64,000 nt of DNA. Source: Dehalococcoidia bacterium (GTDB lineage Bacteria; Chloroflexota; Dehalococcoidia; Lucifugimonadales; CBDEGW01). The position numbers and the translations under genes are program-made. The notes beneath the pieces were generated by a model. It was not told the origin of the DNA. It searched no databases and saw nothing but the letters and a program-made list of their open reading frames with translations. Positions 7,407 to 58,032 of the stretch are shown piece by piece; positions within the stretch are counted from its first letter, which is position 1, and every line of letters begins with the position of its first letter. The stretch is taken from positions 93,340 to 157,339 of the forward strand of contig CBDEGW010000004.1 in the NCBI GenBank assembly GCA_965237935.1, given 5' to 3'.

Positions 7407-7497
7407 ACGCTCCTGGCGGAGCGCACAACGGGGCCTGTTCCTCATCTACCGGTACGGCCCCGCCGAGTCCCATCAACCGAGCATGAAAGGAGACACC

Positions 7498-7869
7498 ATG
7501 CCCAACGCAACAGGGACCACGACGACCTGGCAGGACAACCACAGCGGACTGCGCAGGCACAAGCTCATGACCAAGGAGCTGGGGGACACCATCCCCGCGC
7601 TCGGAGCCAACGAGAACGTCGAGGACTACGACGACGTTCTCGCTCCAGCCAAACTTTTCAGCCCCTACAGCAACTGGACCTGGTACGTCACCGAGTGGGA
7701 CGCCGAGACCGGGGTGTGCTTCGGCCTCGTCGAGGGGTTCGAGACGGAGCTTGGCTACTTCTCCCTCGACGAGCTGGCGGAGGCGACCGTGTTCGGCAGC
7801 GTCCCCGCCGTGGAGCGCGACCTGTACTGGAAGCCGATGACCATCGGCGAGATCAGGAGGGGAGGATAG
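7498..7869 (+). CDS. DUF2958-like protein
   Basis: KLFSPYSNWTWYVTEWD...FGLVEGFETELGYFSLDEL. Confidence 0.75.
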   Translation: MPNATGTTTTWQDNHSGLRRHKLMTKELGDTIPALGANENVEDYDDVLAPAKLFSPYSNWTWYVTEWDAETGVCFGLVEGFETELGYFSLDELAEATVFGSVPAVERDLYWKPMTIGEIRRGG

Positions 7870-13800: not shown

Positions 13801-14664
13801 GTCCGGTGGTGTGCTCTGGGCGGTAGGTGGACGTGACCACGTAAGCGACAGCGGTGTCAGATACATGCTGGTGGTCGCCTACATATCGTTTTACGCCTGC
13901 CTTGTTGCCAGTCTTGTCACCCTCGCCGGAGGCGTCGGCGCCGGTGCGCTTGGTTTGACGCTGAAGGGTGTTGTCCTAGGTACGGCATACTTCCATAGGC
14001 CCTAGACACTATCCACCACTTACGACACTAGAGAGCCGGATGCGGTGAAAGCCGCACGTCCGGTTCGGAAGGGGGCCGACGGAAAAGTGCTCCGGTAACA
14101 CGGGGTAACTCGCCGGCGGCCTACCTTACCTTCCCGCACCCGGAGCGCGAGGTCTTCGACCAGGTGGTGTTGATGGGCTACCGGAAGGCCGACCCCGTTC
14201 CCGACGCCCACGGCGAGAGCATGGTGCTGGAGTGGGCGGTGGGTGAGCCGGAGCCGATGCGCCCCGAACAGTACCCGCCGTTCACCCCGAAGACCACGCC
14301 GAGCGGCGACATCCTGTTCACCACCCGCACCGTCGATCCCGTCGCGGCTGCTGCTGAGGCGCGGCGGTCGGGGCTGTGGACGAGCACGGAGATAACCGAC
14401 ACCCTCTGGCCCGCCAGGGACACCCGCACCCGCCCGCTGATGCCCCTGCGAAGGGGACACATGGCGATGCTGGTGGCGGCGGGCTTCCTCGACAACCTCT
14501 GCCTGGAGGCGGAGGGGCGGCGCATCCTGGTCAAGGGCCGCACCAGCAAGGAGATGGTCATGGTGGAGGACAGCCCCGAGAAGGAGGTCCACCGGGAGAA
14601 GCTCAAGACCACGGTGGTCGCCCTGGACCTCAACGGCGGAGAGATCACCGACATCGCAGCATAG
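10852..14664 (+). CDS. SAM-dependent DNA methyltransferase (DUF6094-like), split by a group II intron; exons 10852-11354 and 14130-14664, 345 aa spliced
   Basis: FYPTP, LDPCCGAGE, NPPY motifs; joining the exons (503+535 nt) gives in-frame RCWA-FPHPEREVFDQVVL. Confidence 0.9.
11864..13654 (+). CDS. ltrA: Intron-encoded reverse transcriptase/maturase with C-terminal HNH endonuclease
   Basis: KRRPLG, GTPQGGVVSPILANVYL, YIRYPDD (variant of YADD), CELC..VHH...CAPCHADIH; AGGAGG RBS at 11864. Confidence 0.92.
   Translation: MRNAETILGIIRNRGTRGLPVNDLYRQLWNPNPYLMAYGRIAKNDGALTPGATPETADGTKMDDIHAIIEALRFERHRWTPARRVYIPKANGKRRPLGLPAWSDKLLQEVMRLLLEAYYEPQFSDRSHGFRPNRGCHTAFTEITRTWTGTTWFIEGDIAGCFDNIDHKVLMEILGENIQDNRFLRLVSNLLRAGYLEDWKLNATYSGTPQGGVVSPILANVYLDRLDRFVEGVLLPDYNRGMKRKRNQEYQRLESRARYFLSAGRGKEAAALRPLMRSLPANDTHDPAYRRLRYIRYPDDFLLGFAGPKDEADEIKARIGMFLRDNLKLELSDAKTLVTHGRTQAARFLGYEVVVQGNDTKLDASGRRSVNGIIGLRVPQDVVRAKSAAYMRDGKPQQRGERLHDSPYSIVEQYQAEFRGVVNYYRRATNLSALNHLRWVMEMSLAKTLASKLKISVSQVFKRYKTTIQTDNGPRKVLMVKVDEPGKKPLVTYWGGVSLARDNTATLIDKHPPILNGRTELVQRLLADTCELCGSTVKVQVHHIRAMKDLRKKGRAERPAWVEMMAQRRRKTLVVCAPCHADIHAGRPLKQIAQAA
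13718..14005 (+). CDS. Passenger small membrane protein inside intron domain IV
   Basis: 95-aa ORF with 2-3 hydrophobic helices between the IEP stop and domain V. Confidence 0.55.
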   Translation: MHRISRKLVKIGIILVAIGVTMALLCGLSGGVLWAVGGRDHVSDSGVRYMLVVAYISFYACLVASLVTLAGGVGAGALGLTLKGVVLGTAYFHRP

Positions 14665-46586: not shown

Positions 46587-47963
46587 TTAGGAAGCGTCAT
46601 CATCCATGCCCATTGATAGCTGTTTGGGTTCCGAGGCTTCCTTCAGGGACACATATATCCGGTACGAGGCTTCATCTTTGGAGGGATCGTCACGCTTCTC
46701 CAGCCTAGCCTCAGCGACCTCGGGAATCTCCTCCAGGATCTCAATCATGGGGAAAGGTCTGCGCAAGGCCAGTGATATAGACGCTCCCTCTTCCCAGGAG
46801 CCAATGCTCTGAGTGACCTCCCCCCCGACAACTTGCTCCAGCCGTCGGTAAAAAGCTATCAATCGGCCGGCCTCCACGGGAGGGGCAATGAATAGCTCTA
46901 GCTCTGTCCGCTCGCTTAGGTCTGCCGCGCCGCCAAGGGCTCCCGATTCCTGTGGTAGGCCCATGAGGGAGTCGTCCAGGGGAACAGCTTGCGTCTCCTC
47001 CTGGGGCATCACCTCACCTACCTCAAGCTCTTGTGGCTGAGCGCTCCAGGTTTCGATGTCCGCAGCCGGCAGCGAGCCGGATGCGGCAGGCCACGACTGA
47101 CTTTGGACCAATATCTCTGGCCTTCCCTCCTGCTCTTGGTAGTCCTGGTTTGACTGCCCAGGGGCTTCATCAAGTGCTGGGGTAGAGCCGGGGGTAATAT
47201 CTGGCGGCTGGCCAGGCAGCGGGTAGACGCCGTTGGCCCCTATAGCGGAATGCCCTGTGCGGGGTGTATAGCCGTTGGGCTGAATATTCCCCCGCTGTTC
47301 GATGATATTCACCGACGCCTGGGGTGTAACGGGAGGAGTTGGCAAAGGACCCGGAGGTTCCAGGGATTCTGCCTCCAGCATTCCAACCTCCCCCACGATA
47401 GGGGTGGTGGAGAGGTCTGGTTCATCCTGAGTGGCTCGGGGCTGGGTATTCTCTGCTGGTTCGCCAGTGGAGGCCTTCGGCTCATCGGAGGGCTCTGGGT
47501 TCTCCGAGGGTGTGACTCTTATCATTTTCCTGAGCTGGGCCAGGGCCTGTTCGACAACGTAGGGGGTTTGCAGCAACCCGCCGCCCACCACCGTTTCGCC
47601 CTGGAAGACTCGTCGTATGGCGCTCACCAGTTCAGGCTGCTTCACATCCTTGATCAAGTAACCGGATGCCCCCATCTCCAGGGCCTGGCCCATATACTCC
47701 TCATACAGGCTAAGCATTATGACCTCGCCTGGGATCTGGCGCTCTTTTAGCCGGCGAGTGGCCTCCAGCCCGTTGATGTTGGGCATCTTGATATCCATCA
47801 GGATGATGTCTGGGGAGAACTGAGGCACCTGGGCGAGGGCCTCCTCAGCGTCGGAGGCCTCGCCAACCACCTCCAGGCCTGGGTCCAGCTCCAACATGCG
47901 CCGAAGGCCATGGCGAGCCATTTCATGATCATCCACCAAAAACACTCGGATTGCTCGTGGCAT
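46587..47963 (-). CDS. NarL-type receiver domain + long disordered linker + small C-terminal domain
   Basis: LVDDH, LMDIKMP, GYLIKD; residues ~150-370 are P/E/Q-rich; no LuxR HTH. Confidence 0.8.
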   Translation of the reverse strand: MPRAIRVFLVDDHEMARHGLRRMLELDPGLEVVGEASDAEEALAQVPQFSPDIILMDIKMPNINGLEATRRLKERQIPGEVIMLSLYEEYMGQALEMGASGYLIKDVKQPELVSAIRRVFQGETVVGGGLLQTPYVVEQALAQLRKMIRVTPSENPEPSDEPKASTGEPAENTQPRATQDEPDLSTTPIVGEVGMLEAESLEPPGPLPTPPVTPQASVNIIEQRGNIQPNGYTPRTGHSAIGANGVYPLPGQPPDITPGSTPALDEAPGQSNQDYQEQEGRPEILVQSQSWPAASGSLPAADIETWSAQPQELEVGEVMPQEETQAVPLDDSLMGLPQESGALGGAADLSERTELELFIAPPVEAGRLIAFYRRLEQVVGGEVTQSIGSWEEGASISLALRRPFPMIEILEEIPEVAEARLEKRDDPSKDEASYRIYVSLKEASEPKQLSMGMDDDAS

Positions 47964-48162
47964 TCCCTTACCCTCTTATGATGAACTGGTAGTGGCTAAC
48001 TTCTCCTGATAAGGACCCCGGTTAACCATACCGTTTGCGACCTACCATACAGATTTTGGGCAATTGCTTAAACTGGTAAAGAGGCCAATACAGAGGCACA
48101 AAGAGACCAGGATGTGGCCTTAAGGGGCAATTCCCACAGGAGGATGGAGCGGCTGGACCTGG

Positions 48163-48780
48163 CTAGATCAGGTTTCTTCGGATGGCTTCTGCCACCGCTT
48201 CAGAGCGATTGTGCACGCCCATCTTCTCCAGGACGTCTCGAATGGTCCTCTTAACCGTGGTTTCGCTGAAGGAGAGCTGTCGGGCGATCTCATGGGTGGT
48301 GACCCCTTTGGCTACCAGGCGCAGGGTGTCCTGTTCTCGCTCGGAAAGGGAGGAAGCGCCGCCCGATGCCAAAGACTCCAGACGGTCTCGCTGCATCGAG
48401 AGGTGTAATGGAGAGCGCCCCTCGCGGATTGAGTGAATGGCGCTTACCAGCTCCTCTCGCCGGATGTCTTTAAGGAGATAGCCCACGGCTCCTGCCTGGA
48501 GGGCGGGCGCAAAATACTCATCGTACATAGTCAGTACCAGGACCTCGCATCCGGGCTGCTCCTGCTTCACCCGGCGGGTAAACTCGATGCCATCCATTGT
48601 CGGCATCTGAATGTCGGTAATGACTATATCAGGAGTCAACTCCTCTAGCTGTTCAAGGGCCTCCTGTCCATTGGAGGCCTCGCCCACTACTCGCAGATCG
48701 GGTTCCAGCTCCAGCATTCGCCGGAGCCCGGCCCTGACGATCTGGTGGTCCTCTACTAGAAAGATGCGAATGGTGTCCAT
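48163..48780 (-). CDS. NarL/LuxR-family response regulator
   Basis: LVEDH, ITDIQMP, LSEREQDTL...FSETTVK. Confidence 0.95.
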   Translation of the reverse strand: MDTIRIFLVEDHQIVRAGLRRMLELEPDLRVVGEASNGQEALEQLEELTPDIVITDIQMPTMDGIEFTRRVKQEQPGCEVLVLTMYDEYFAPALQAGAVGYLLKDIRREELVSAIHSIREGRSPLHLSMQRDRLESLASGGASSLSEREQDTLRLVAKGVTTHEIARQLSFSETTVKRTIRDVLEKMGVHNRSEAVAEAIRRNLI

Positions 48781-50283
48781 GGCGCTCTCACCCTAGAGTT
48801 GTTCGGATGGAATGGGCACGCGTATCTTTAGGCTGGTTCCCTCTCCCTCTCGCGTATCTAGCTGAAGGGAGCCTCCCAGCCATTCAGCCCGCTGCTGCAT
48901 ACTCATTAACCCCATGTGGCCAACCGAGACGGCACTGGCCATGGTTTGAGACGCATTGAACCCCTTACCATTATCGGTCACTTCGATGAACAGATCGCTC
49001 TCCTGATAATGCAGTCGTAGATCTACCCTAGTTGCCTTGGCGTGCCTGCGTACATTATTAAGGGCTTCCTGGACTATGCGAAAGACAGTGATCTCCATGG
49101 AGGGGTCCAGGCGTATTTGGGAGCCCTCGGTTTCAAAGAAGCATTCGATGTTCTCTTTTTCCAAGGTCTCTGCGGCTTTAGAGAGGGCGTGGTTCAGCCC
49201 CAGCTCATCAAGAGACGGAGGCCGAAGTCCAGCCATGACCATTCTGAGCTCTCGCAGGCTTTCATCAACGGCGTCTTCCAGGGCCTCCAGGTCTTCGCGG
49301 AGATTGGCATAGTTCCTCTGGGCTAGCAGGGCGTTGCAGATTTGAGCCTGGTAGGAAGCCCTCACCAGCCACTGGGCCACGCTGTCGTGGAGCTCCACTG
49401 TCATCCGCTCTCGCTCCTGCTCCTGGGCCTGTACTACCTGAGCCAGCAACTGCTCGGCTCGCTGCTGCTGCTGACGCAGACTATCCAGCATGCGGGCATT
49501 GTCTACGGCCAGGGCGGCGCCACTGGCCATAGTTAGAAGGAGGTCCACCTCCTCCTCGGTGTAATCTGTTCCCCGGCGCTTCTCTCCCAGGGCCAGGATT
49601 CCGGTGAAAGTGCCCCGGCTCAGCATGGGACAGAGAAGATTCACCCCTAGAGCTCTAAGGGAATTCATCTCCGACTCCCAGAGCCCCGCTCCTTCCGGAA
49701 AGGTGTCCAGGTATTGCACCCGCAGCGCCTGCTTCTCCTCCACCATTAGCGTAACCAGGGGGCTGTCGCGGTGCAGCATCAGGTCTAAGGAGGTTTCGCC
49801 CCAAATTTCCCCGGCCGAGAAGCGCGCTTGGAACTCGCCCGTCGTCCCGTCGAGTATGAGGAGCGTTGCCCATTGGGCGTGGAGCCCTTGCAGTAGGACA
49901 TCCAGCATATCCCGGGAAAGCCGCTCCAGGTCCAGGGCATTGCTTAAGCTGGCACGGAAGTCGGCCAGTCTCTGGCGGAACTCATAGGTGCTGCGGAAGA
50001 AGAGCCTGTCCATGCGTTCCTGAGTAAGGTTTCGCAGGGGGGTAAACGTTATCGCCATCATCAGCGCCAGGGCGGCGGCGACTACCGGTCCGGAATACCC
50101 GCTGGATACAGGGAAGATGTTTTGGAGCCCATAGAGGACCATGAGGAATGCAGCGGTCAGCACCACTGTCAGGGCGGAGTAGGGCAAGCTCCGCTGGATC
50201 ACCACGCGTATATCCATCAGATTGTACTTGAGGATGGCGTAGCTAATTATTGGGAATTATATACCAGTTTACCCCAGGCCCCA

Positions 50284-50445
50284 TTATGAGGCGGCTTGGT
50301 CTGCCCGCTTGCGCAGCGTATCCCGTTCTGGCTTGGGGCGAGTCTTTAGCAGCGACTTGATGGCATTCTCAGCCGTGTCTGGGATTGGCTCCGGCGGCTT
50401 GCGCTCCACAGGACGGCCCCGCTTGGGATTAGCTTTGTCTGACAT
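50284..50445 (-). CDS. Small basic protein at the IS1595 3' end (53 aa)
   Basis: AGGAG RBS; MSDKANPKRGRPVERKPPEPIPDTAENAIKSLL... Confidence 0.6.
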   Translation of the reverse strand: MSDKANPKRGRPVERKPPEPIPDTAENAIKSLLKTRPKPERDTLRKRADQAAS

Positions 50446-50507
50446 ACCTATCCTCCTTTTTCTCCGAGTCCTAGGTCATGCGCAGTGCTACTACTGCTGT
50501 TTCTCCA

Positions 50508-51623
50508 TTATCTACTGGATGCAGCAGCATCCGGCGACTCAGGTCTGGCGTTGATGCAATTCCCTGAGACGAACTGTCGCAAGGCATCCGTGTGGGCGTA
50601 AAGATCGTATATCTGCTCGACGTGTATGGGCGTCATGCCGGTCGCTACCAAACGGACAGATTCGGGCCGCCTCGCGTACAACTGGAACAGGACACCCCCA
50701 TAATCTTCTCTTTCGGGACTGTCATACAACACCACCGAGCAGTAGCGTTTGGTTTGTCGCAAATCGAGACGGCGTACGTCCACCAGACCGCCCAGTATCG
50801 CCTTTATTACGTTTAGGGCTTCGATCTCCGTCGCGACGAACGGAGGCTCGTCTTTTTCCGCTTGTTCTTCAGCGACGTGTGATGATGGTGCATCGCCCTC
50901 CTGTTTTAGCGCATTCGTCAAGCGGTCTTGTATTTTGCCACTGATGAACTGGTTGAATGCAGAATAGGTCAAGCCTTGGAACATTCGACGCGCCCCGATG
51001 GAATTTGTTCCTTCATAAACTTGGCGAGTGACAAATCGCACAAAGTCATCAGAAGGTTTTGCTAACTCTCTGGCGAGCAGACGTTTGATCTCCGCCGTGT
51101 ATCTTAATTCCCTTGCCGCGTCTATGATCGTCGTTTGGTCGAACGCCTCCTTGGTAAACCTCTTTAACTCCTGTACCTCCTGCTCCGTAAAGTTGAGCAT
51201 GTCGAATGTGAAAAATGGCCGGGGGTCCATGACATTCGACTGATCGAGGTCGGAAAAGAAAAGATAACGGATGCCGTCCGTCAATATACCGACGCGTGAT
51301 GCGGTAACGCCAAAATACCGGAGCAACTGTGACACGACATGGTCATCGAGTTTAGTTCCTAATTTTTTGCACTCGACAAGAATCGCGGGCATCCCTGACT
51401 GGATTAGTGCGTAATCTACCTTCTCGCCTTTCTTGGAACCGATGTCGGCGGTAAATTCGGGAACTACTTCAACCGGATCGAATATGTCATAGCCCAGCAT
51501 CTGAATGAACGGTAAAACCAGCGAAGTCTTTGTTGCCTCCTCCGTGGACTCCGAATTGTCCATTTGAGCGATCCGCTTGGCGAAGCGACTAGACCGGCTG
51601 CGAACTTCGTCAATAAAATCCAT
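50508..51623 (-). CDS. HsdR N-terminal-like PD-(D/E)XK nuclease protein (IS passenger)
   Basis: TEEATKTSLVLPF, EKVDYAL, ILVECK, ILTDG; no helicase motifs. Confidence 0.82.
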   Translation of the reverse strand: MDFIDEVRSRSSRFAKRIAQMDNSESTEEATKTSLVLPFIQMLGYDIFDPVEVVPEFTADIGSKKGEKVDYALIQSGMPAILVECKKLGTKLDDHVVSQLLRYFGVTASRVGILTDGIRYLFFSDLDQSNVMDPRPFFTFDMLNFTEQEVQELKRFTKEAFDQTTIIDAARELRYTAEIKRLLARELAKPSDDFVRFVTRQVYEGTNSIGARRMFQGLTYSAFNQFISGKIQDRLTNALKQEGDAPSSHVAEEQAEKDEPPFVATEIEALNVIKAILGGLVDVRRLDLRQTKRYCSVVLYDSPEREDYGGVLFQLYARRPESVRLVATGMTPIHVEQIYDLYAHTDALRQFVSGNCINARPESPDAAASSR

Positions 51624-51647
51624 GCTGCCTCCTTGTATCCAAACCCC

Positions 51648-52586
51648 CTATGTTCTTACCAAATCCGCGTACCGCAAACGCTTCCCACCCATGTTCTGAG
51701 CCATAGCCGCCATCTGTGCCTCAGTGTCCATCGGGCGGTCGTTGTGGCGTCCAGAAAACTCCGTTACGTACCGGCCCAGGTGCTTGACGCTCATGTGGTG
51801 GTATACCCCGACGTATCCACGTTTCAGCATCGCCCAATGGCTCTCTATCCCGTTGGTATGGGCCATCCCGTGCACGTATTCGCGGGCGGAGTGCTTGACC
51901 GTCTCGTGTGGCCGCCTAAGCCCGCCATAGGCTAATGCGTCATCGGTGTAGACCTGAGCGTCCTTCTCGGTGTGCTGGTAGACAAAGCCCTGCAACGTGG
52001 GAGCATCAGTTGAGTGAGCGACCTGGGCAGTGACTTGGCCGGTCTCCCGGTCCTTTGCGCCCACAACCGCCGTCTTGCCCACAGGCCCTCGACCGGCATG
52101 GAGCCGCTTGGCCTCGTGCTTGTTGCGCTCCTTCCCGCCGATGTACGTCTCGTCTACTTCGACCGGGCCTGCGAACGGAGCGTTATCGTGTGCCCACGCT
52201 TGGCGGATGCGGTGACCCAAGTGCCAGGCCGTCTTTTGGGTGACGCCAAGGTCGCGGTGTAGCTTCATGCTCGACACTCCCTTAAGGTTCGTAACCAGGA
52301 GATAGAGGGCCATGCCCCACGCCTTCAACGGCAGCTTCGAGGCGCGCATGATGGAGTCGGACTTGATGCTGAAGTCCTTGCGGCAGCCGTTGCACCGGAA
52401 GGGCTGGGGCTTGCGGGTGGTGCGGTGCTGGATGTCTTGGGAGTTGCAAGCCGGGCACTCTACGCCATCGGGCCAGCGTTGCTCTACAAACCACGCCTCG
52501 GTGAAGTCGGGGTCTGAGAACATCTCCACAGCCTCTATGAGGCTGATTCCCTTGCGGTAGTGCTTCCCTGGTGCGTTGCTAGCCAT
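51648..52586 (-). CDS. IS1595 (ISXO2-like) transposase
   Basis: Zn ribbon CPAC/CNGC; VEVDETYIGG, YTDD, HTNGIESHW. Confidence 0.95.
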   Translation of the reverse strand: MASNAPGKHYRKGISLIEAVEMFSDPDFTEAWFVEQRWPDGVECPACNSQDIQHRTTRKPQPFRCNGCRKDFSIKSDSIMRASKLPLKAWGMALYLLVTNLKGVSSMKLHRDLGVTQKTAWHLGHRIRQAWAHDNAPFAGPVEVDETYIGGKERNKHEAKRLHAGRGPVGKTAVVGAKDRETGQVTAQVAHSTDAPTLQGFVYQHTEKDAQVYTDDALAYGGLRRPHETVKHSAREYVHGMAHTNGIESHWAMLKRGYVGVYHHMSVKHLGRYVTEFSGRHNDRPMDTEAQMAAMAQNMGGKRLRYADLVRT

Positions 52587-52616
52587 CTGTCTAAACCCCT
52601 CTTGCTTTATAAGAGA

Positions 52617-52645
52617 AGTTTACCCCAAGCGGCTGCGGTTGTCAA
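52617..52645 (-). promoter_or_regulatory. Probable transposase promoter
   Basis: TTGACA-17 bp-TAAACT on the minus strand. Confidence 0.6.
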
Positions 52646-52872
52646 GGACCTCCGTTGCCTGTTTCTAGGGCGCGCACCAATATCACGACAACGGGCGTTA
52701 ACGACGTGCCGATGGTCAGTGCTGGGGCAACGACCAGGGCGATCAAAGGTAGTGCTTCCTGCGTAGTCTTGTCCTTCGACAGTGATAATCCCGTGCGCAA
52801 CGCCAGAAATGCCAGCAAAGCTTGCACACCTACAACTAAGACCGTCAGCACCAGAACAATGTAGGTGCTCAA
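52642..52872 (-). CDS. Small 2-TM passenger protein
   Basis: Hydrophobic 76 aa; TTG start overlaps the stop of a 33-aa hydrophobic ORF (52869-52970). Confidence 0.5.
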   Translation of the reverse strand: MSTYIVLVLTVLVVGVQALLAFLALRTGLSLSKDKTTQEALPLIALVVAPALTIGTSLTPVVVILVRALETGNGGP

Positions 52873-53778
52873 GCAAACACCACCATAGCCGTCACCGCAA
52901 GGGTGATGATAGCGGAGGCTATGAGGGGGCCTGCGATTGCAACAATTGTAACCTTGGAGTCCATGTCCATATTATACTGCCTCCGGGGTAATTTGGTATA
53001 TAATTCCCTAATTATTAGGGCGTTGAACAGGTTGCCCAGGTGGTCAATGGGGTATTTGGACAGGTCTTGACTGATGTTGGTCAGGAGGTAAGGGGTCACT
53101 ATTAAGAGGCCAATCAGCAGGTAAGTGATCCTGGAGCTGGCCAGGGGAGTGGTCACCTCCTTTCGATACTGCACCAGCGAAAAGGCGATGGCTCCCACCA
53201 GGGCTAAGCCAAAGGGCACCATGAGATAGAGGGAGAAGCCGAATTCTACGTAGAGGAAGCCGTCCTATACACGAGAGTTCTGGGGTACGTGGCCCAGGGC
53301 GGCCAGTATGGCCATTACCAACAGGAAGGCGGATCCCAGATATACTCCTACACCCGAAGGCTTGCGGACAAAGACGCGCACAAAGTGGTAGTAGGTGATT
53401 GCCATCCATATAGTGGCCAGAATTATGAGGCGATTAATGGCCAGGGTGTTCTCTTGAAGGAAGGAGGTCTCCAAGCGAATGAGGAAGGAGAAGAAGCTCC
53501 AGAGGCCCGCAGCCACCAGGTATAGTATGAAAGCCCTGCGCTCCAGCATCCGAGGATGACGCTGAGCCAGGACTATCAGCGTGCCGTAGGCGAAAAAGCC
53601 TAGTAGGGGGATTAGCGCTAAGACACTCAAGACAGCCTCAGCCGAAGTTTGAGTCAACTTGTTGCCAGATAGACCTTGGTCAGTATGGCGCGGTTATGTC
53701 AAAGCTGTCAAGTTGACCCTTGCGTGCCGAAGCCGGCCCAGCATTGATAAGGCTTGCAAAGAAGCGACAGGCGATGGA

Positions 53779-55497
53779 TTACTCGGCTTTAGTGGGTAAA
53801 CTGCCATTCATGTGGAAGCCGTTTCCATTGACGTGGGGGTAGTTTCCATTCATCAGGAGACGGACCTCCTGGTCGGAGGGGTTGATGCGGCGGGGCGCCA
53901 GGCGCGAGAGCTCAGCCCCGTTCGCCCGTTGTTCCCCAGCGTATCTATGGAAAGCGCCACAGGGCAGGATGGTAACCCTCAAGGGTTCCAGGTGCAGCAT
54001 CTCCTCCAGGTCGGCATAGGGGGCGTCCAGGCGCTTGAGATGATAGTGAATTGCCTCCCTGGCTGCCTTGGGACCCTTGTCATCTGGAGTCGACCCATTC
54101 TCTTTTAGCTCCAGATACAGGTGCAGTACGGGGTTATCCTGACCCTCTTTCCTGGGGACCCATTCCTGACAGGCCACTCCCGAGCGCTGAATGGCCTCGC
54201 CTATGACCCTCTCAGTTAGACGTGTAAAGCCAGCCAGGTCAAGAAAGCCATCGGACCGGGAGTGGAAGACCATCTGGGGGAGGTCTATGTCCAGCTTCTC
54301 GTTCCGCACAGCGGTGAACCTGACCAGGTCTCCCATGCGGTACCGTACAAAGGCGCCCCCCAGCAGATTTGTGATCACCACCTCGTAGCTCTGGCCGGGG
54401 GTCACCTCGTTCAGTAGGCAGGTCTTGGGTTGATAGCCGGGACTGAGGGAGGCTTTCAAGCGCTCCTCCTCCGGGATAAACTCCAGGAAGTTCAGGTTCG
54501 GTAGGAAGGTCATCCCTTCTCGGTCCCAAGTTTGCACTGCGATCAGTAATCCTTCGGTGGAGCCATACCCATCCAGAGGGTCCTTACCCCACATCTCCTT
54601 GATCTTCTGACGGTAGATGGAGGATTCTGCGCCACCTATGGCCACGCCTCGCAGGTTCCACAGGTCCTTGGGCAGCAGAGAACGCCGGGCCAGCTTGCTC
54701 TTCAGCAGCCCCTTGGCCAGACGCATAAAGAGTCGAGGCTGGCCCAGCATCGAGAGCAAGCTGAGCCCCTTGCCTCCCTGGCTTAACTGCTCTCCCAGGG
54801 CCACCAACACACTGGGCAGTCCGAAGACAAAGTCCAGCCCATCGGTAAGGGCCTGCTGTAAGCCCCGCTGAATACGCTCTTCGAAGGACATCTCCTCGGC
54901 ATCCTCCAGGGGAGGCAGAAACCGCAGTGGCAGCTCCTCATTGGCGCGTCGTGCCCAGCAACCGGTGGCATAGGGCGGAGGCGCGAGGGCGTAGAGGATC
55001 TTCTCCTCATCGCCCAGGCTGATGTCGTACTTGCGTTTGCAGGTGGCCAGAATCAGTGCCGCGAAGAGGGCCGAGCCCATCTCCTGGTACATGCGCTCCG
55101 ACATAGGGGCCCACTTGCATTCGTGCTCTCCCCAAATGCCGGAGGTACGCTGCCACAGCAGAGGCTTGGCTGGAAGGGCCTCCTCCCGTTGCTCCTGCAG
55201 GTAGGGAGCATAATCGCTATAGGTGGTCAGGGGCACCTGTTCCCTGAATTCTGCTAAAGTCTTGGGCTGGGCGCCTGCCATGACTTTTCGCCCCATCTCG
55301 CAATTGGCCAGAAGCTCCAGTTGTTCCAAGAGCAGGTGCCGCTGAATGTTCATAAACCTCGGTAGGCTGAGGTCCAGAAAGCCGCAGTACTTTCTCCATA
55401 GCTCCTTATACCGATGCTCTCTGAGAAGGTCTTTTCCGGTGGTTCTCTCCACAACATCGGAGCGGCGCTCCAACAGCTCTTCTAGTTTAATAGTCAT
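53779..55497 (-). CDS. GH3-family acyl-adenylate/amido synthetase
   Basis: VPLTTYSDY, RTSG...KWAP, YGSTEG, YRMGDLV motifs. Confidence 0.9.
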   Translation of the reverse strand: MTIKLEELLERRSDVVERTTGKDLLREHRYKELWRKYCGFLDLSLPRFMNIQRHLLLEQLELLANCEMGRKVMAGAQPKTLAEFREQVPLTTYSDYAPYLQEQREEALPAKPLLWQRTSGIWGEHECKWAPMSERMYQEMGSALFAALILATCKRKYDISLGDEEKILYALAPPPYATGCWARRANEELPLRFLPPLEDAEEMSFEERIQRGLQQALTDGLDFVFGLPSVLVALGEQLSQGGKGLSLLSMLGQPRLFMRLAKGLLKSKLARRSLLPKDLWNLRGVAIGGAESSIYRQKIKEMWGKDPLDGYGSTEGLLIAVQTWDREGMTFLPNLNFLEFIPEEERLKASLSPGYQPKTCLLNEVTPGQSYEVVITNLLGGAFVRYRMGDLVRFTAVRNEKLDIDLPQMVFHSRSDGFLDLAGFTRLTERVIGEAIQRSGVACQEWVPRKEGQDNPVLHLYLELKENGSTPDDKGPKAAREAIHYHLKRLDAPYADLEEMLHLEPLRVTILPCGAFHRYAGEQRANGAELSRLAPRRINPSDQEVRLLMNGNYPHVNGNGFHMNGSLPTKAE

Positions 55498-55502
55498 ATC
55501 GC

Positions 55503-56120
55503 TTACCTCTCTTGGAGACTCCGCTCCAGGGCTCTCGGCAAGTGGAGGCCTTTTAGGAAGACAGCCACGCTTCGCCGATTGGGAATCAGCATAGGGGTGG
55601 CCTGCCGATACTGCTCATATCCCGGCAGAACCTTGCCCAGCACAAGTCTCTCCTGCAGGACTACCCACAGGACGTCCAAGGCGATCCAAAGGGGTAGCGC
55701 AAGTAGCAGAGGCTTGGCCTGGAAGGCCAGAAGAAGAGAGACTATGAAGAGGGCGTACCAGGCAACTGTGGGGTGTCTTACCAGGGCGTAAGTCCCCGTG
55801 GTCACCAGGTGCGGTGTGTCGTGGGAGTTTCGATAGGTCGCTGAAAAGGGGAGCTCTACAAACAGGGAGTAGAAAAGCAACAGGGCCGATCCAGGCAGTA
55901 GGATCCATCCCACTCCCTGAAGCCAGCCTGGCAGCCAGAACCGCTCCGACGTAAGGCAGACCATTGTCGTGGCGTAGAGCAGAAGACCGCCCGCCAATAT
56001 CCACATCATCGTCTTGGCTCCTGGGAACCTCTTTACGAAAGGCAGCTCGAAAGCGTACCCCGCTATGAACCCCAGGATGCCTATTAGGGCATAGTACAGG
56101 CAGTATGGCCTGACCAGCAC
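55503..56120 (-). CDS. ICMT/PEMT-like integral membrane methyltransferase
   Basis: LVTTGTYALVRHP, ERLVLGKVLPGYEQYRQATPMLIP. Confidence 0.75.
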   Translation of the reverse strand: MLVRPYCLYYALIGILGFIAGYAFELPFVKRFPGAKTMMWILAGGLLLYATTMVCLTSERFWLPGWLQGVGWILLPGSALLLFYSLFVELPFSATYRNSHDTPHLVTTGTYALVRHPTVAWYALFIVSLLLAFQAKPLLLALPLWIALDVLWVVLQERLVLGKVLPGYEQYRQATPMLIPNRRSVAVFLKGLHLPRALERSLQER

Positions 56121-56181
56121 TAAGCGGGAAGTGACTTAGTTCTAGAACAAAGTTCTATCAGCGCAGGGCGATAGCTAAATT

Positions 56182-56210
56182 AGAAGGGGCTCCAAAAAGG
56201 AGCCCCTTCT
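56182..56210. terminator. Hairpin terminator
   Basis: AGAAGGGGCTCC-AAAAA-GGAGCCCCTTCT with AT-rich flanks. Confidence 0.7.
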
Positions 56211-56247
56211 TTAAACTAACGAGAAGACCTGTTTTCGAGCTGGGGAG

Positions 56248-56598
56248 TTACTTCGCAGGCGTCTTCTTGAGCTGTCGAGAGGATTCCTTGGCGACGCCCA
56301 GCTCATCCAGCTTTTTCGTAAGGCTTGCTAAATCGTTGTTGCCCCTGCGGGGCCCCAGCTCCAGACCATAGCTGACGACAAAGTCCAGGACACTTCTCAG
56401 GAGGCCCTTGATGTCCTCTTCCACCTCGGTCAGGGCCTCCTGGGTGGCGTATCGCTCATCGGCGGTTTTCTGCTCCAGGCGACTATCAATAAGAAACTCT
56501 ATGAATTCCGCTATGCTAAGGTCCCCACGGTTCTCGTCGATCTTTTGCAGCAGGTTGCCGGGGATAATGAGCATTCTTTTATCGGCCACAGTCAACAC
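56248..56598 (-). CDS. Hypothetical protein (possible ribbon-helix-helix N-terminus)
   Basis: AAGGAG RBS; LLQKIDENRGDLSIAEFIEFLIDSRL. Confidence 0.7.
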   Translation of the reverse strand: MLTVADKRMLIIPGNLLQKIDENRGDLSIAEFIEFLIDSRLEQKTADERYATQEALTEVEEDIKGLLRSVLDFVVSYGLELGPRRGNNDLASLTKKLDELGVAKESSRQLKKTPAK

Positions 56599-56656
56599 TC
56601 CTTAGCCAGCCATGGCGGGGAGGTCCATTGGCGGACTAACTTTTTAAGGCACACCT

Positions 56657-56932
56657 TTACTGAGACGCACCCAAAGCCGATAGCACGGCGTCTATGCTAT
56701 TGAGTAGCTGTGCCCCTCGCGGAGTGACCAGGTATTTTACGCCTGGATTGGGCACTATTTTCGCCTCCAGAAAACCCTCTTGAACCAGATAGCTCAGGTA
56801 CTTCTGGAGCTGGCGGAAGCTCAAGTTGGCGCTGTACATTATCTCCGTTTTCCCGGCCTCGCCCAAGCGCAGGATGTCGGCGATAACCTCCATGCTGGAC
56901 CTTCGGCTGTTCACTCCATTCTTCATCCCCAC
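56657..56932 (-). CDS. Winged-helix regulator (HTH_45/COG3432-like)
   Basis: RRSSMEVIADIL...KTEIMYSANLSFRQLQKYL...VTPRG. Confidence 0.82.
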   Translation of the reverse strand: MGMKNGVNSRRSSMEVIADILRLGEAGKTEIMYSANLSFRQLQKYLSYLVQEGFLEAKIVPNPGVKYLVTPRGAQLLNSIDAVLSALGASQ

Positions 56933-57152
56933 CCCCAGTCCATTGGGCTACACCATGCCTTAGAGCTTTCCACAACATAACATTATGGTGCATTTTCTAG
57001 ATTCGTCAAGGCCAGGGGCAGATTTGAGCCGTAGCCTGGCTCTTGTCTAGCCAGCATTTAGCACACCACGGTGTCTTGACGAAAGCGGGGCAGGAGGGAA
57101 CAGGGAAGAGGGCAGCGTCTGATAGGCTTACTAGAGGGATGCCAGCGCGCTG

Positions 57153-57563
57153 TCAAATCAGGGTCAAGGTGAAATTATTGACCACGGCGGCGAAAGCCGT
57201 TAAAGCATATGGCACCAGCACGGCGACGTAGGCCGCCCGAGCGAAGGCTGTGAGGCCAACCCTGTCGTAGAATAGGCGGGTGGCACCGGCTATCACGCAC
57301 AGGAGACCCACGGCCACCACGTCCATAATGTACAGTCCGTTCCAACCGCCTCTCTTTAACGCCCAGCTTGCCAGGGGGCCGCTTTCATACACCTCCGCCT
57401 TTCCGCTGATCTCCAGGAGGACGAAGGTGCTGATATGGTCTAACGCTCCGAGAAGGCAGACGAGAGGTAACAGCCAGCCAAGATGATATGGCCAGATGGC
57501 CCTTGATAGCGTCCATACATGGCGTTCTAGGGACTTGTGGCGTTGAAGGACCTCCTCTGTCAT
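57153..57563 (-). CDS. Membrane protein (DUF5658-like)
   Basis: LDHIST...YESGPLA motif, 3-4 TM helices. Confidence 0.6.
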   Translation of the reverse strand: MTEEVLQRHKSLERHVWTLSRAIWPYHLGWLLPLVCLLGALDHISTFVLLEISGKAEVYESGPLASWALKRGGWNGLYIMDVVAVGLLCVIAGATRLFYDRVGLTAFARAAYVAVLVPYALTAFAAVVNNFTLTLI

Positions 57564-58032
57564 TGGCTCTGCCCTGGGAAGTATACGGCGAATCCCTGAT
57601 ACCGCTACGTTTGTGGCACTCCCCTTCTGGATTAGCATAGAGATGCAGTACTCCTTTGCGTCTTGCGTGAGGTCTGATAAGAGAAGGATAAACGGACGGA
57701 ACGTCCACGACATCACCCTTAAAGGTGAACTGGGGGCACTCATACAGGCGACTAGTGGATTAATCGCACCATGAGTCCATGTCGGAACGGCCCCTTTGGC
57801 TCTAGGCAATACTTAAGAATTGGAGGAGCTCACACTGGACCGATGATGGTTGACGGAGTCAGTAGCCTGGGGGTAACCTAAGCGCTGTCAGAAGCTCCTG
57901 ACACGGGATCCGCCTCATGAGAAGCCCGCCTGTTCTGACGTTCAAGGCGAAGAGGCCCTGCTCTAGATGGGGCCCTGGGGTTGGATGACGAGATTGGGCC
58001 GGTGGTCCACCCTTTACCAAGGAGATGTAGCC

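What the first reader, a model, noticed from the sequence alone, without database searches (positions are those of the whole stretch)
46587..57563. Candidate signal-synthase/receptor cassette: GH3 ligase + membrane methyltransferase + 7TM kinase + two NarL-type receivers
Seen: co-oriented run of DUF5658-like protein, wHTH, small protein, ICMT-like methyltransferase, GH3 enzyme, 7TM-GAF kinase, LuxR regulator and REC-linker protein. Known: plant GH3 enzymes adenylate acids (auxin, jasmonate) and conjugate them to amino acids to make or inactivate hormones. Bacterial GH3 functions are poorly defined. Inference: GH3 and the methyltransferase make an N-acyl amino acid or methylated lipid signal that the adjacent membrane kinase senses, a quorum-sensing-like circuit.
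Basis: inference. Interest (0 to 1): 0.7.

Follow-up and report, generated by a model that had tools for sequence, protein, structure and literature searches.

The report
GH3 enzyme paired with membrane sensor
This is a damaged copy of a previously undescribed gene cassette, found in about 95% of the related Dehalococcoidia loci surveyed, that pairs a plant-hormone-type (GH3) amide-forming enzyme with its own multi-pass membrane sensor; here a nonsense codon and a transposon have killed the sensor gene.

Summary
The gene run is real: all genes lie on the minus strand, and the domain calls hold for the wHTH, the 116-aa protein, the ICMT/PEMT-like methyltransferase, GH3, the GAF-HisKA_3 kinase, the LuxR-type regulator and the REC-linker protein. 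Two corrections apply. "DUF5658-like" has no Pfam support. The kinase is a pseudogene, with an in-frame TAG at 53265-53267 and a 2,757-bp IS1595-family element at 50252-53008.

- GH3 to sensor: in 65 of 69 genome loci with enough flank, a multi-TM/GAF sensor follows GH3 on the same strand. Two more loci have it divergent.
- Sensor to GH3: in 58 of 61 metagenome loci seeded from the sensor, GH3 lies just upstream.

The conserved partner is the sensor's input module, not the kinase. Of 46 complete sensors, 32 end in GGDEF+HD-GYP and 14 in a histidine kinase. A natural methyltransferase-GH3 fusion exists. Ketoacyl synthase, ThiF, radical-SAM and methyltransferase genes are sometimes inserted between GH3 and the sensor.

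The best reading is a metabolite-synthase/sensor module, with an acyl-amide product sensed at the membrane. The chemistry, the direction of signalling and any quorum-sensing role are untested. The main rival is OlsH/OlsG-type aminolipid synthesis. No prior description of the cassette was found.

The parts
57153..57809 (-). Membrane ORF (218 aa from TTG; 136 aa if started at 57563). Lineage-specific neighbour, not part of the conserved cassette.
   Evidence: No Pfam or NCBIfam hit. No tblastn match in 80 GH3 loci. Present as a 184-aa gene in sister-strain contig L162.
56982..57009 (-). Promoter-like site upstream of the wHTH gene
   Evidence: TTGACG-16-CATAAT, 10 of 12 matches. This is a consensus match only.
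56657..56932 (-). 91-aa winged-helix protein (HTH_45 / Sso10a family); presumed transcription regulator of the cassette
   Evidence: Pfam HTH_45 at 73 bits. NCBIfam Sso10a_fam at 68 bits against a cut-off of 60. On the same strand upstream of GH3 in 47 of 68 loci with enough flank.
56248..56598 (-). 116-aa protein of an unannotated family ('sm116'), always next to the wHTH gene
   Evidence: 358 homologs, none with a Pfam domain. Present upstream of GH3 in 52 of 72 loci. The AF2 model is four helices at pLDDT 67, with no Foldseek match in the PDB.
55503..56120 (-). 205-aa membrane methyltransferase-like protein of the ICMT/PEMT superfamily
   Evidence: Weak PEMT and ICMT hits. The ortholog profile hits Ma-ICMT 4A2N at E=8e-6 over the cofactor-binding half. 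R115-H116-P117 are invariant. A 5-nt gap separates it from GH3. It is fused to GH3 in P0040. Present in 37 of 74 loci.
53779..55497 (-). 572-aa GH3-family adenylating amide synthetase, apparently intact
   Evidence: Pfam GH3, GH3_M and GH3_C. The profile hits plant GH3 structures (JAR1 4EPL, E=3e-15). The three nucleotide-binding motifs are kept and invariant in 27 sequences: T118-S-G...K128, Y311-G-S-T-E315 and G380...R-Y-R-M-G-D390. Motif definitions are from PMC12493201.
53682..53711 (-). Promoter-like site upstream of the sensor kinase gene
   Evidence: TTGACA-18-CATACT, 10 of 12 matches. This is a consensus match only.
53009..53657 (-). 5' part of the sensor kinase pseudogene (TM helices 1-7), with an in-frame TAG at 53265-53267
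   Evidence: ORFs 53265-53657 and 52869-53222 are in the same frame, separated by one TAG. 57% identical to residues 1-221 of intact ortholog P0244. Orthologs match Pfam HisKA_7TM (30 of 46); the window copy itself does not.
50252..53008 (-). IS1595-family insertion sequence with passenger genes, inserted in the sensor gene at the TM7/TM8 junction. Target duplications lie at 53009-53016 and 50244-50251.
   Evidence: 24-nt terminal inverted repeats, 22/24 matching, found nowhere else in the window. The 8-bp duplication AATAATTA was read directly. Transposase 51648-52586 scores NCBIfam IS1595 178 bits against a cut-off of 75. Passenger 50508-51623 has an HSDR_N domain.
48793..50243 (-). 3' part of the sensor kinase pseudogene: two TM helices, GAF, HisKA_3, HATPase_c
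   Evidence: Pfam. In frame with the 5' part after IS removal. 57% identical to residues 217-686 of P0244. The AF2 model of P0244 gives the domain order.
48163..48780 (-). NarL/LuxR-type response regulator (REC + GerE), now without a working cognate kinase
   Evidence: Pfam. Directly downstream of the sensor in 32 of 38 HisKA_3-type cassettes and in 0 of 105 others.
46587..47963 (-). Second response regulator: REC, a P/E/Q-rich linker, and a ~100-aa C-terminal domain of unknown family
   Evidence: Pfam finds REC only. The REC domain recurs in 34 of 38 HisKA_3-type cassettes and the C-terminal domain in 24 of 38, against 1 and 2 of 105 others.

Best explanation
The region is a decayed copy of a conserved cassette whose core is a GH3-family ATP-dependent amide synthetase plus a dedicated membrane sensor. 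The cassette is found mainly in Dehalococcoidia.

Cassette layout:
- The sensor has seven TM helices of the HisKA_7TM type, two further TM helices and a GAF domain.
- Usual accessories are a wHTH/116-aa protein pair upstream and, in about half of the loci, an ICMT/PEMT-like membrane methyltransferase translationally coupled to GH3.

Proposed mechanism:
- GH3 adenylates a hydrophobic carboxylic acid and joins it to an amine, probably an amino acid. This happens at the membrane surface (inferred).
- The methyltransferase, or in other genomes a ketoacyl synthase, ThiF-like enzyme, B12-radical-SAM enzyme or class-I methyltransferase, tailors the precursor or the product (inferred).
- The neighbouring TM/GAF module reads the level of this amphipathic metabolite (inferred).
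- It passes the information to whichever output it carries: a NarL-type two-component pathway (kinase, LuxR-type regulator and a REC-X protein) in the window's lineage, or c-di-GMP synthesis and breakdown (GGDEF+HD-GYP) in most others.

State in this genome: the sensor gene has been inactivated by a nonsense codon and an IS1595 insertion. The enzyme side is left intact and the two response regulators are orphaned.

What is shown and what is inferred:
- Shown: the anatomy, the pseudogenisation, the two-way linkage, the output swapping and the methyltransferase-GH3 fusion.
- Inferred: the substrate class, and that the sensor's ligand is the GH3 product. Whether the molecule acts inside one cell or between cells is unknown.
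For: Linkage, GH3 to sensor:
- Of 69 genome loci with at least 1.5 kb downstream of GH3, 64 have the TM module on the same strand within 3.5 kb.
- L062 adds a HisKA_7TM-3xGAF-HisKA sensor directly downstream, and two more loci (L058, L076) have the sensor divergent. Only L014 and L051 lack it.

Linkage, sensor to GH3:
- In an independent collection, of 61 metagenome loci with at least 1.2 kb upstream of the sensor, 58 have GH3 within 3.5 kb on the same strand. In 48 of these it lies within 500 nt.

Not simple inherited synteny:
- GH3 identity to the window falls to 46%.
- Window genes outside the cassette (GH15, CoxS, the membrane ORF) occur in 0-1 of 80 loci.
- 0-2 variable genes are inserted between GH3 and the sensor.
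- Rearranged loci (L058, L076, L080) keep the pair adjacent.
- MAGs labelled Calditrichales and Clostridia carry the same cassette.

Input conserved, output swapped:
- GAF is present in 46 of 46 complete sensors. GGDEF+HD is present in 32, HATPase in 14 (HisKA_3 in 8, HisKA in 6).
- In a rough NJ tree of GH3, HisKA_3-type partners appear in at least 4 places.
- Distant HisKA_7TM relatives are not next to GH3, so the link is specific to one subclade.

Enzyme competence and membrane association:
- All three GH3 nucleotide-binding motifs are invariant.
- A methyltransferase-GH3 fusion, P0040, exists.
- Accessory genes are of biosynthetic type: ketoacyl synthase, ThiF, B12-radical SAM, methyltransferase.
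- L019 and L069 carry tandem GH3 paralogs.

Precedent for the chemistry: bacterial GH3 OlsH makes N-acyl-ornithine from free fatty acid and ATP (PMC12493201).
Against: - No biochemical data exist for any member. The substrate class is inferred from very distant relatives: the window GH3 scores 29.6 bits on the OlsH model against a cut-off of 620.
- Gene adjacency cannot show whether the product is the sensor's ligand, whether the sensor controls the enzyme, or whether both respond to a third factor.
- The most conserved residues in the TM module are aromatic or hydrophobic, with no obvious polar binding site.
- The methyltransferase is absent from half of the cassettes.
- Nearly all loci come from one class, so phylogenetic non-independence inflates the counts.
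- The reverse survey was seeded with sensors taken from GH3 loci and kept only the 80 best of 172 hits.
- In this window the sensor is dead while GH3 looks intact, so GH3 can evidently be retained without its sensor.
Confidence: 0.45

Rival explanations
1. Membrane aminolipid synthesis under envelope-state control. GH3 and the methyltransferase are counterparts of OlsH and OlsG. They would make an N-acyl amino acid lipid and methylate its head group as a structural membrane component. The multi-TM sensor would monitor membrane state, in the manner of DesK, rather than the product as a signal. Linkage would then reflect homeostatic control of lipid remodelling.
For: - OlsH is the only characterised bacterial GH3. 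It sits in an operon with the lipid N-methyltransferase OlsG, which is related to phospholipid N-methyltransferases (PMC12493201; PMC12971839).
- The window has the same GH3-next-to-membrane-methyltransferase arrangement, and a fusion protein exists.
- Seven loci have a ketoacyl-synthase gene inserted.
- The kinase core is of the DesK (HisKA_3) class.
Against: - The window GH3 is far from the OlsH equivalog: 29.6 bits against a cut-off of 620.
- No OlsI-like alpha/beta-hydrolase acyltransferase is conserved in the neighbourhood.
- The methyltransferase is missing from half of the cassettes.
- Most sensors output c-di-GMP, which gives no direct route to transcription of the adjacent genes.
- Tandem GH3 paralogs and variable tailoring genes look more like specialised metabolism.
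Confidence: 0.27
2. Removal or inactivation of an external or toxic acid. As with plant GH3 enzymes that inactivate auxin, the enzyme would conjugate, and the methyltransferase would esterify, an incoming carboxylic acid such as a fatty or aromatic acid. The sensor would detect that same compound. The enzyme would be the sink for the signal, not its source.
For: Plant group II GH3 enzymes inactivate IAA by conjugation (PMC10747189 and PMC9322293 abstracts). The linkage data fit a sensor-plus-sink pair as well as a source-plus-sensor pair.
Against: Biosynthetic-type accessory genes in some cassettes (ketoacyl synthase, ThiF, radical SAM) suggest that a precursor is built rather than imported. 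No transporter is conserved in the cassette.
Confidence: 0.13
3. Part of a type IV pilus / surface-behaviour programme. GH3 would modify a pilus or envelope component, and the c-di-GMP sensor would control pilus function. Linkage with GH3 would then be secondary.
For: In about 20 of 80 loci a full type IV pilus gene set lies directly upstream of the wHTH gene on the same strand: PilD, pilin, PilB/T, PilC and PilM/N. c-di-GMP commonly governs pili (general knowledge).
Against: The window has no pilus genes, nor do most loci. The GH3-sensor pair persists without them and with kinase outputs.
Confidence: 0.05
4. No functional coupling. The adjacency is inherited gene order within one bacterial class.
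For: Nearly all loci are Dehalococcoidia MAGs, and the counts are not corrected for phylogeny.
Against: Flanking genes are not conserved, while the pair is kept at 46-60% GH3 identity, through insertions, inversions and output-domain swaps, and in MAGs assigned to other phyla.
Confidence: 0.05

Closest known systems
OlsH-OlsG-OlsI ornithine-lipid operon of Singulisphaera acidiphila (PMC12493201)
   Same: A bacterial GH3-family enzyme encoded next to a membrane-lipid-type methyltransferase. The three GH3 nucleotide-binding motifs are kept. The plausible chemistry is the same: free acid + ATP + amine gives an N-acyl amide.
   Different: - The window GH3 scores 29.6 bits on the NCBIfam OlsH model against a cut-off of 620.
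- There is no OlsI-type acyltransferase.
- The methyltransferase here looks ICMT/PEMT-like and is optional.
- The OlsH papers read here report only the olsH-olsG-olsI operon and no dedicated sensor, wHTH or sm116 partners.
- The taxon is different: Chloroflexota, not Planctomycetes or the FCB group.
Plant GH3 acyl acid amido synthetases (JAR1/GH3.11, GH3.12, GH3.5/6)
   Same: The same fold family: the profile hits 4EPL, 4EPM, 4B2G and others at E of 1e-10 to 3e-15, with the same nucleotide-binding motifs. Like JAR1, which makes JA-Ile, the enzyme is proposed to make or remove a ligand read by a dedicated receptor.
   Different: Only the C-terminal half aligns confidently. The receptor type is unrelated: a bacterial TM/GAF sensor rather than COI1/TIR1 F-box co-receptors. 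The substrates are unknown.
Bacterial signal-synthase/sensor gene pairs, e.g. PhcB (methyltransferase making 3-OH fatty acid methyl esters)/PhcS kinase of Ralstonia, and RpfF/RpfC (from general knowledge, not tested here)
   Same: A gene for an enzyme that acts on a lipid-like acid is adjacent to a membrane sensor kinase and response regulators. A methyl-ester or amide of a fatty-type acid would be the candidate ligand.
   Different: The enzyme and sensor families are unrelated to those systems. Most copies output c-di-GMP from the same polypeptide. There is no evidence of secretion, autoinduction or cell-density dependence.
DesK-DesR membrane-state sensing (HisKA_3 kinase + NarL-type regulator controlling a lipid-modifying enzyme)
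   Same: The kinase core is of the same class: the best Foldseek matches of the ortholog model are DesK structures. The sensing part is multi-TM, the regulator is NarL-type, and a lipid-type enzyme gene is nearby.
   Different: DesK has 5 TM helices and no GAF domain. The sensor here has 9 TM helices plus GAF, and in most genomes it is not a kinase at all.
IS1595-family insertion sequences
   Same: A zinc-ribbon + DDE transposase (178 bits against a cut-off of 75), terminal inverted repeats and an 8-bp target duplication.
   Different: It carries an HSDR_N-domain passenger gene and small ORFs, for a total of 2.76 kb. Its relation to named IS1595 subgroups was not examined.

Membership tests
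[quoted passage not shown] | Domain models matched above the curated cut-offs | tested here: met
   GH3 N domain 44.2 bits and GH3_M 52.6 bits, both above 23.6. GH3_C is 20.6 bits, just below cut-off in the window copy, but orthologs carry PF23572.
[quoted passage not shown] | Three nucleotide-binding motifs (SSGTSxGxxK, YGSSE, GLYRYRLGD in AtGH3.11) | tested here: met
   The window has RTSGIWGEHECK (117-128), YGSTE (311-315) and GGAFVRYRMGD (380-390). The key residues are invariant in 27 sequences. Motifs 2 and 3 align to JAR1. Motif definitions are from PMC12493201.
[quoted passage not shown] | ATP-dependent adenylation of a carboxylic acid and transfer to an amine | not testable with these tools
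   This requires an enzyme assay.
OlsH lyso-ornithine lipid synthetase (NCBIfam NF052613 equivalog) | Score at or above the equivalog cut-off | tested here: not met
   29.6 bits against a cut-off of 620.
OlsH lyso-ornithine lipid synthetase (NCBIfam NF052613 equivalog) | Operon with an OlsI alpha/beta-hydrolase O-acyltransferase | tested here: not met
   No such gene is in the window cassette or among the recurrent neighbours in 80 loci.
ICMT/PEMT membrane methyltransferase superfamily | Match to the family models or to a solved member over the cofactor-binding region | tested here: inconclusive
   The window protein is below the Pfam cut-offs: PEMT 21.9 against 25, ICMT 17.9 against 24. The ortholog profile hits Ma-ICMT 4A2N at E=8e-6 over residues 105-192. 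The methyltransferase part of fusion P0040 passes PEMT at 28.1 against 25. RHP is invariant, but the acidic pair of ICMT is replaced by Q-D.
ICMT/PEMT membrane methyltransferase superfamily | SAM-dependent methyl transfer, and whether it is O- or N-methylation | not testable with these tools
   This requires an assay.
HisKA_7TM sensor domain (Pfam PF16927) | Match to the 7TM model | tested here: inconclusive
   The reconstructed window N-terminus gives no hit. 30 of 46 orthologous sensors match. The AF2 model of ortholog P0244 shows 7 + 2 TM helices.
NarL-type two-component system | HisKA_3 + HATPase_c kinase with a REC + GerE regulator | tested here: met
   Pfam. The regulator is directly downstream in 32 of 38 HisKA_3-type cassettes.
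NarL-type two-component system | Intact sensor kinase reading frame | tested here: not met
   An in-frame TAG at 53265-53267 and an IS insertion at 50252-53008.
Cognate signal-synthase/receptor pair (quorum-sensing-like) | Conserved genetic coupling of enzyme and receptor | tested here: met
   65 (+2 divergent) of 69 loci forward, and 58 of 61 reverse.
Cognate signal-synthase/receptor pair (quorum-sensing-like) | The enzyme product is the receptor's ligand; the signal is released and accumulates with cell density | not testable with these tools
   No conserved exporter was seen in the neighbourhood. The rest requires experiments.
IS1595 family insertion sequence | IS1595-type DDE transposase, terminal inverted repeats, 8-bp target duplication | tested here: met
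   NCBIfam 178 bits against a cut-off of 75. 24-nt inverted repeats, 22/24 matching. AATAATTA is duplicated at both ends.

The most novel reading that the evidence does not exclude
Dehalococcoidia and some neighbours would use GH3-made acyl-amide molecules as dedicated chemical messengers, a bacterial counterpart of plant JA-Ile and auxin-conjugate signalling. A previously uncharacterised 9-TM/GAF receptor family would read them and feed either two-component or c-di-GMP pathways. Tailoring enzymes (ICMT-like methyltransferase, ketoacyl synthase, ThiF, radical SAM, extra GH3 paralogs) would diversify the signal between lineages.
Probability: 0.3. Interest if true: 0.85.

Novelty: new variant of a known kind. 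Interest (0 to 1): 0.62.

Why it matters
- Bacterial GH3 proteins number in the thousands, but only one, OlsH (2025), has a known function.
- The ligands of HisKA_7TM sensors are unknown.
- Dehalococcoidia are abundant, hard-to-culture subsurface bacteria whose signalling is essentially unstudied.
- A tight, two-way genetic coupling of one GH3 clade to one sensor clade, with interchangeable outputs, gives a concrete and testable enzyme-ligand-receptor hypothesis. It supplies both halves of the experiment: express the enzyme, identify the product, then add it to the sensor.
- If confirmed, it would be a new class of bacterial messenger made by the same enzyme family that plants use to make and inactivate hormones.
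- For this particular genome the finding is more modest: the cassette is broken by a transposon, which is a snapshot of loss of the sensing arm.

Tried and rejected
- 'DUF5658-like' first gene: no Pfam hit at E<=1 and no conservation with the cassette. Dropped from the cassette.
- sm116 as a ribbon-helix-helix DNA binder, suggested by eye from the N-terminal 'KRMLIVPAELVKKID...' pattern:
  - No RHH family among the Pfam hits of 34 members at E<=1; one member weakly hits VAPB_antitox.
  - The AF2 model has moderate confidence (pLDDT 67) with four helices.
  - Foldseek against the PDB gave nothing at E<2.
  - Left as unknown.
- The 7TM module as a PAQR-like membrane hydrolase with a metal site: the nearly invariant residues are aromatic or hydrophobic, and His/Asp are not conserved at 90% or more. 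Rejected.
- Foldseek of the full sensor model: dominated by kinase-core hits (DesK and others), with no information on the TM part.
- First attempt to seed the reverse survey with 36 sensors failed because no stretch was conserved enough. It was repeated with 12 sequences.
- Looking for an intact sister-strain kinase to date the TAG and the IS: contig L161 (GH3 93% identical) ends after 98 codons of the sensor, before both lesions. L162 ends in the methyltransferase.
- OlsG family assignment from the original paper: the paper (PMC4463453) is not held. Only the review statement 'related to phospholipid N-methyltransferases' could be cited.
- Literature searches for a prior description of a GH3-sensor cassette found none.
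- PADLOC on the IS passenger genes: only a weak IIG restriction-enzyme hit.

Full report
**1. What is in the window**

Pfam and NCBIfam confirm:
- an HTH_45/Sso10a-family winged-helix protein (56657-56932);
- a 116-aa protein without any family (56248-56598);
- a 205-aa membrane protein with weak PEMT/ICMT matches (55503-56120);
- a 572-aa GH3-family protein (53779-55497);
- a GAF-HisKA_3-HATPase_c protein (48793-50217);
- a REC-GerE regulator (48163-48780);
- a REC protein with a long low-complexity linker (46587-47963).

The 'DUF5658-like' label for the first gene found no support at E<=1.

The flanks are unrelated. A GH15 glucoamylase/trehalase-like gene lies on one side and divergent CoxS/CoxM-like genes on the other.

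**2. The kinase is a pseudogene**

About 3.4 kb of the 'run' is not cassette. It holds the N-terminal fragments of the kinase and a mobile element.
- ORFs 53265-53657 and 52869-53222 are in the same frame, separated by a single TAG at 53265-53267.
- At 53008 the reading frame runs into a 24-nt inverted repeat, GGGAATTATATACCAAATTACCCC. Its partner (22/24 matching) is at 50252-50275. The repeat occurs nowhere else in the window, and none is expected by chance.
- The 8 bases AATAATTA flank both ends, at 53009-53016 and 50244-50251.
- The 2,757-bp element encodes an IS1595-family transposase (178 bits, cut-off 75), an HSDR_N-domain passenger protein and small ORFs.
- Deleting the element and one duplication copy joins the two kinase parts in frame into a 699-codon gene.
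- That gene is collinear with an intact 688-aa ortholog, P0244, at about 57% identity over both halves.
- An AlphaFold model of P0244 (pLDDT 75) shows seven TM helices with a small beta-hairpin loop, two further TM helices, GAF, a HisKA_3 helical hairpin and the ATPase domain. The IS sits at the TM7/TM8 junction.

The receptor of the proposed circuit therefore carries two independent inactivating lesions in this genome. GH3, the methyltransferase, the wHTH, the 116-aa protein and both regulators look full-length against their orthologs.

**3. The synteny test**

*Homologs and loci.* The GH3 protein has thousands of homologs: 2,984 at E<=1e-5 among the candidates scored. One is 93% identical; the rest are 66% or less. 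A scan of one genome per species returned 80 loci, almost all Dehalococcoidia MAGs, with GH3 46-60% identical to the window.

*Raw tblastn counts.* Window proteins against these 80 loci gave:
- wHTH 52, the 116-aa protein 54, methyltransferase 42;
- the TM part of the kinase 69, the kinase C-part 65 (mostly only its TM+GAF portion);
- LuxR regulator 26, REC-linker protein 21;
- membrane ORF 0, GH15 0, CoxS 1.

*Gene order.* The order is constant: wHTH, 116-aa gene, (methyltransferase), GH3, 0-2 variable genes, sensor.

*Flank-aware counts, GH3 to sensor.*
- 64 of 69 loci with at least 1.5 kb downstream have the TM module on the same strand within 3.5 kb.
- L062 has a HisKA_7TM-3xGAF-HisKA sensor directly downstream that the tblastn query missed.
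- L058 and L076 have the sensor divergent upstream.
- Only L014 and L051 lack it.

*Reverse test, sensor to GH3.* I seeded a scan of metagenome contigs with the sensor's TM+GAF region only. Of 61 loci with at least 1.2 kb upstream, 58 have GH3 upstream on the same strand, 48 of them within 500 nt.

*Specificity.* Distant relatives of the TM module (23-34% identity, with SpoIIE or other outputs) are not next to GH3. The coupling is specific to one sensor subclade.

**4. What the conserved partner is**

Pfam on 46 complete sensors gave:
- GAF in 46;
- HisKA_7TM in 30;
- GGDEF plus HD (HD-GYP type) in 32;
- HATPase_c in 14 (HisKA_3 in 8, HisKA in 6).

The input module is therefore what stays with GH3, and the output is interchangeable.

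In a rough NJ tree of GH3, the HisKA_3-type partners fall in at least four places among the GGDEF/HD-GYP-type partners (no support values, so this is only indicative).

Cassettes of the window's type have their own fixed tail. Across both surveys, the 38 HisKA_3-type sensors compare with 105 others as follows:
- a LuxR-type regulator directly downstream: 32 of 38 against 0 of 105;
- a REC domain like that of the second regulator: 34 of 38 against 1 of 105;
- the second regulator's unassigned ~100-aa C-terminal domain: 24 of 38 against 2 of 105.

**5. The enzyme side**

*GH3.* It keeps the three GH3 nucleotide-binding motifs defined on AtGH3.11 and OlsH (PMC12493201): RTSGIWGEHECK, YGSTE and GGAFVRYRMGD. 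The key residues are invariant in 27 family members. The family profile matches plant GH3 crystal structures at E of 3e-15 to 4e-10.

*Methyltransferase.*
- It is separated from GH3 by 5 nt.
- It is present in 37 of 74 loci.
- It is fused to the N-terminus of GH3 in P0040 (PEMT 28 bits, cut-off 25; GH3 domains at 229-722).
- A profile of 32 orthologs hits the cofactor-binding half of Methanosarcina ICMT (4A2N, E=8e-6), with R-H-P invariant.

*Variable genes.* The genes inserted between GH3 and the sensor are ThiF-family (8 loci), FabF-like ketoacyl synthase (7), B12-binding radical SAM (5) and class-I methyltransferase (2). L019 and L069 have extra GH3 paralogs.

Together these features look like a small, variable biosynthetic cluster acting at the membrane.

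**6. The small proteins**

The wHTH passes the NCBIfam Sso10a-family cut-off.

The 116-aa family has only 358 detectable members, none annotated. Its N-terminus looks like a ribbon-helix-helix by eye. However, Pfam, an AF2 model (pLDDT 67, four helices) and Foldseek did not support any assignment.

Many orthologs end in a conserved '...IKWK' C-terminus that the window copy lacks.

**7. Mechanism and rivals**

*Preferred reading.* The facts that need explaining are the two-way coupling of one GH3 clade to one TM/GAF input module, the interchangeable outputs, the membrane association and the biosynthetic accessories. The simplest account is that GH3 controls the level of an amphipathic acyl-amide that the TM/GAF module reads. 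Output swapping favours this reading: a sensor whose job was to regulate transcription of its neighbours would be expected to keep a transcriptional output, yet two thirds of the sensors make or break c-di-GMP.

*Main rival.* GH3 and the methyltransferase make a structural aminolipid. The only characterised bacterial GH3, OlsH, makes N-acyl-ornithine and is encoded next to the lipid N-methyltransferase OlsG (PMC12493201; PMC12971839).
- Against membership: the OlsH model score is 29.6 against 620, and no OlsI-type acyltransferase is conserved.
- Against the rival itself the evidence is only circumstantial.

*Other readings.*
- A 'sink' reading, in which the enzyme inactivates the sensed acid as plant auxin-conjugating GH3s do, fits the linkage equally well.
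- A type IV pilus connection is suggested by pilus genes directly upstream in about 20 loci. It does not hold for the window or for most loci.
- Pure phylogenetic inertia is unlikely, given the non-conserved flanks, the insertions, the inversions and the domain swaps.
- Nothing tested bears on intercellular (quorum-sensing) use.

**8. Novelty**

Full-text searches found no description of a GH3-sensor cassette. They also found no ligand for HisKA_7TM, which is listed only as a sensor domain of unknown input (PMC5847659, PMC6944256).

The kind of system, an enzyme gene paired with a cognate membrane sensor, is known. The enzyme family, the receptor family and the output plasticity are new in combination, so I rate it a new variant of a known kind.

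**9. Verdict**

| Item | Verdict |
|---|---|
| Observation | Partly confirmed: right genes, one unsupported label, broken kinase and IS not described |
| Interpretation | Partly supported: linkage prediction passed strongly; chemistry, ligand relation and quorum sensing untested; circuit inactive here |

| Claim | Confidence |
|---|---|
| The cassette is a real functional unit | about 0.9 |
| It is a metabolite-synthase/sensor pair as stated | about 0.45 |
| It is an intercellular signal system | 0.15 or less |

Noticed in passing
window 11822-14129: Group II intron: a 610-aa ORF at 11822-13654 (+), followed by an Rfam Intron_gpII match (65.7 bits) at 14031-14129. The first ~16 kb of the window has higher GC (0.64-0.69) than the rest (~0.60).
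   Followed up: no
window 50508-51623 (inside the IS, 50252-53008): The IS1595-family element carries a 371-aa passenger protein with an HSDR_N (type I restriction R-subunit N-terminal, nuclease-like) domain. It also carries two small ORFs: 76 aa (TM-rich) and 53 aa. PADLOC gave only a weak type IIG hit.
   Followed up: partly
window 46587-47963; also L001, L003, L004, L047, L073 and many of L081-L160: The second response regulator ends in a conserved ~100-aa domain with no Pfam match. The domain recurs in 24 of 38 HisKA_3-type cassettes and is nearly absent elsewhere. It is possibly a new REC output domain.
   Followed up: partly
L006-L057 and others, alignment A4 columns ~160-167: Many orthologs of the 116-aa protein end in a conserved extreme C-terminal '...A(T/K)IKWK' motif. 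The window copy ends '...KKTPAK' instead.
   Followed up: no
about 20 loci, e.g. L023:7662-8438, L008:636-1847 and 7112-7522, L067:5204-6301, L071:4133-5602: A type IV pilus gene set lies directly upstream of the wHTH gene on the same strand in a subset of Dehalococcoidales: PilD prepilin peptidase, a pilin with an N_methyl motif, a PilB/T ATPase, PilC and PilM/N. The window has no such genes.
   Followed up: partly
L019:8316-13506; L069:10001-13310: Tandem GH3 paralogs (three in L019, two in L069) lie upstream of a single sensor gene.
   Followed up: no
P0040 (750 aa, JGI metagenome): A natural fusion of the ICMT/PEMT-like methyltransferase (N-terminal) with GH3 (C-terminal). The source annotated it only as a Ste14-type methyltransferase.
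   Followed up: yes
L001:11777-12462; L004:12344-13745: In two long-read MAG assemblies the orthologous kinase also appears split into pieces in different frames. These could be assembly frameshifts or further pseudogenes; the two cases were not distinguished.
   Followed up: no
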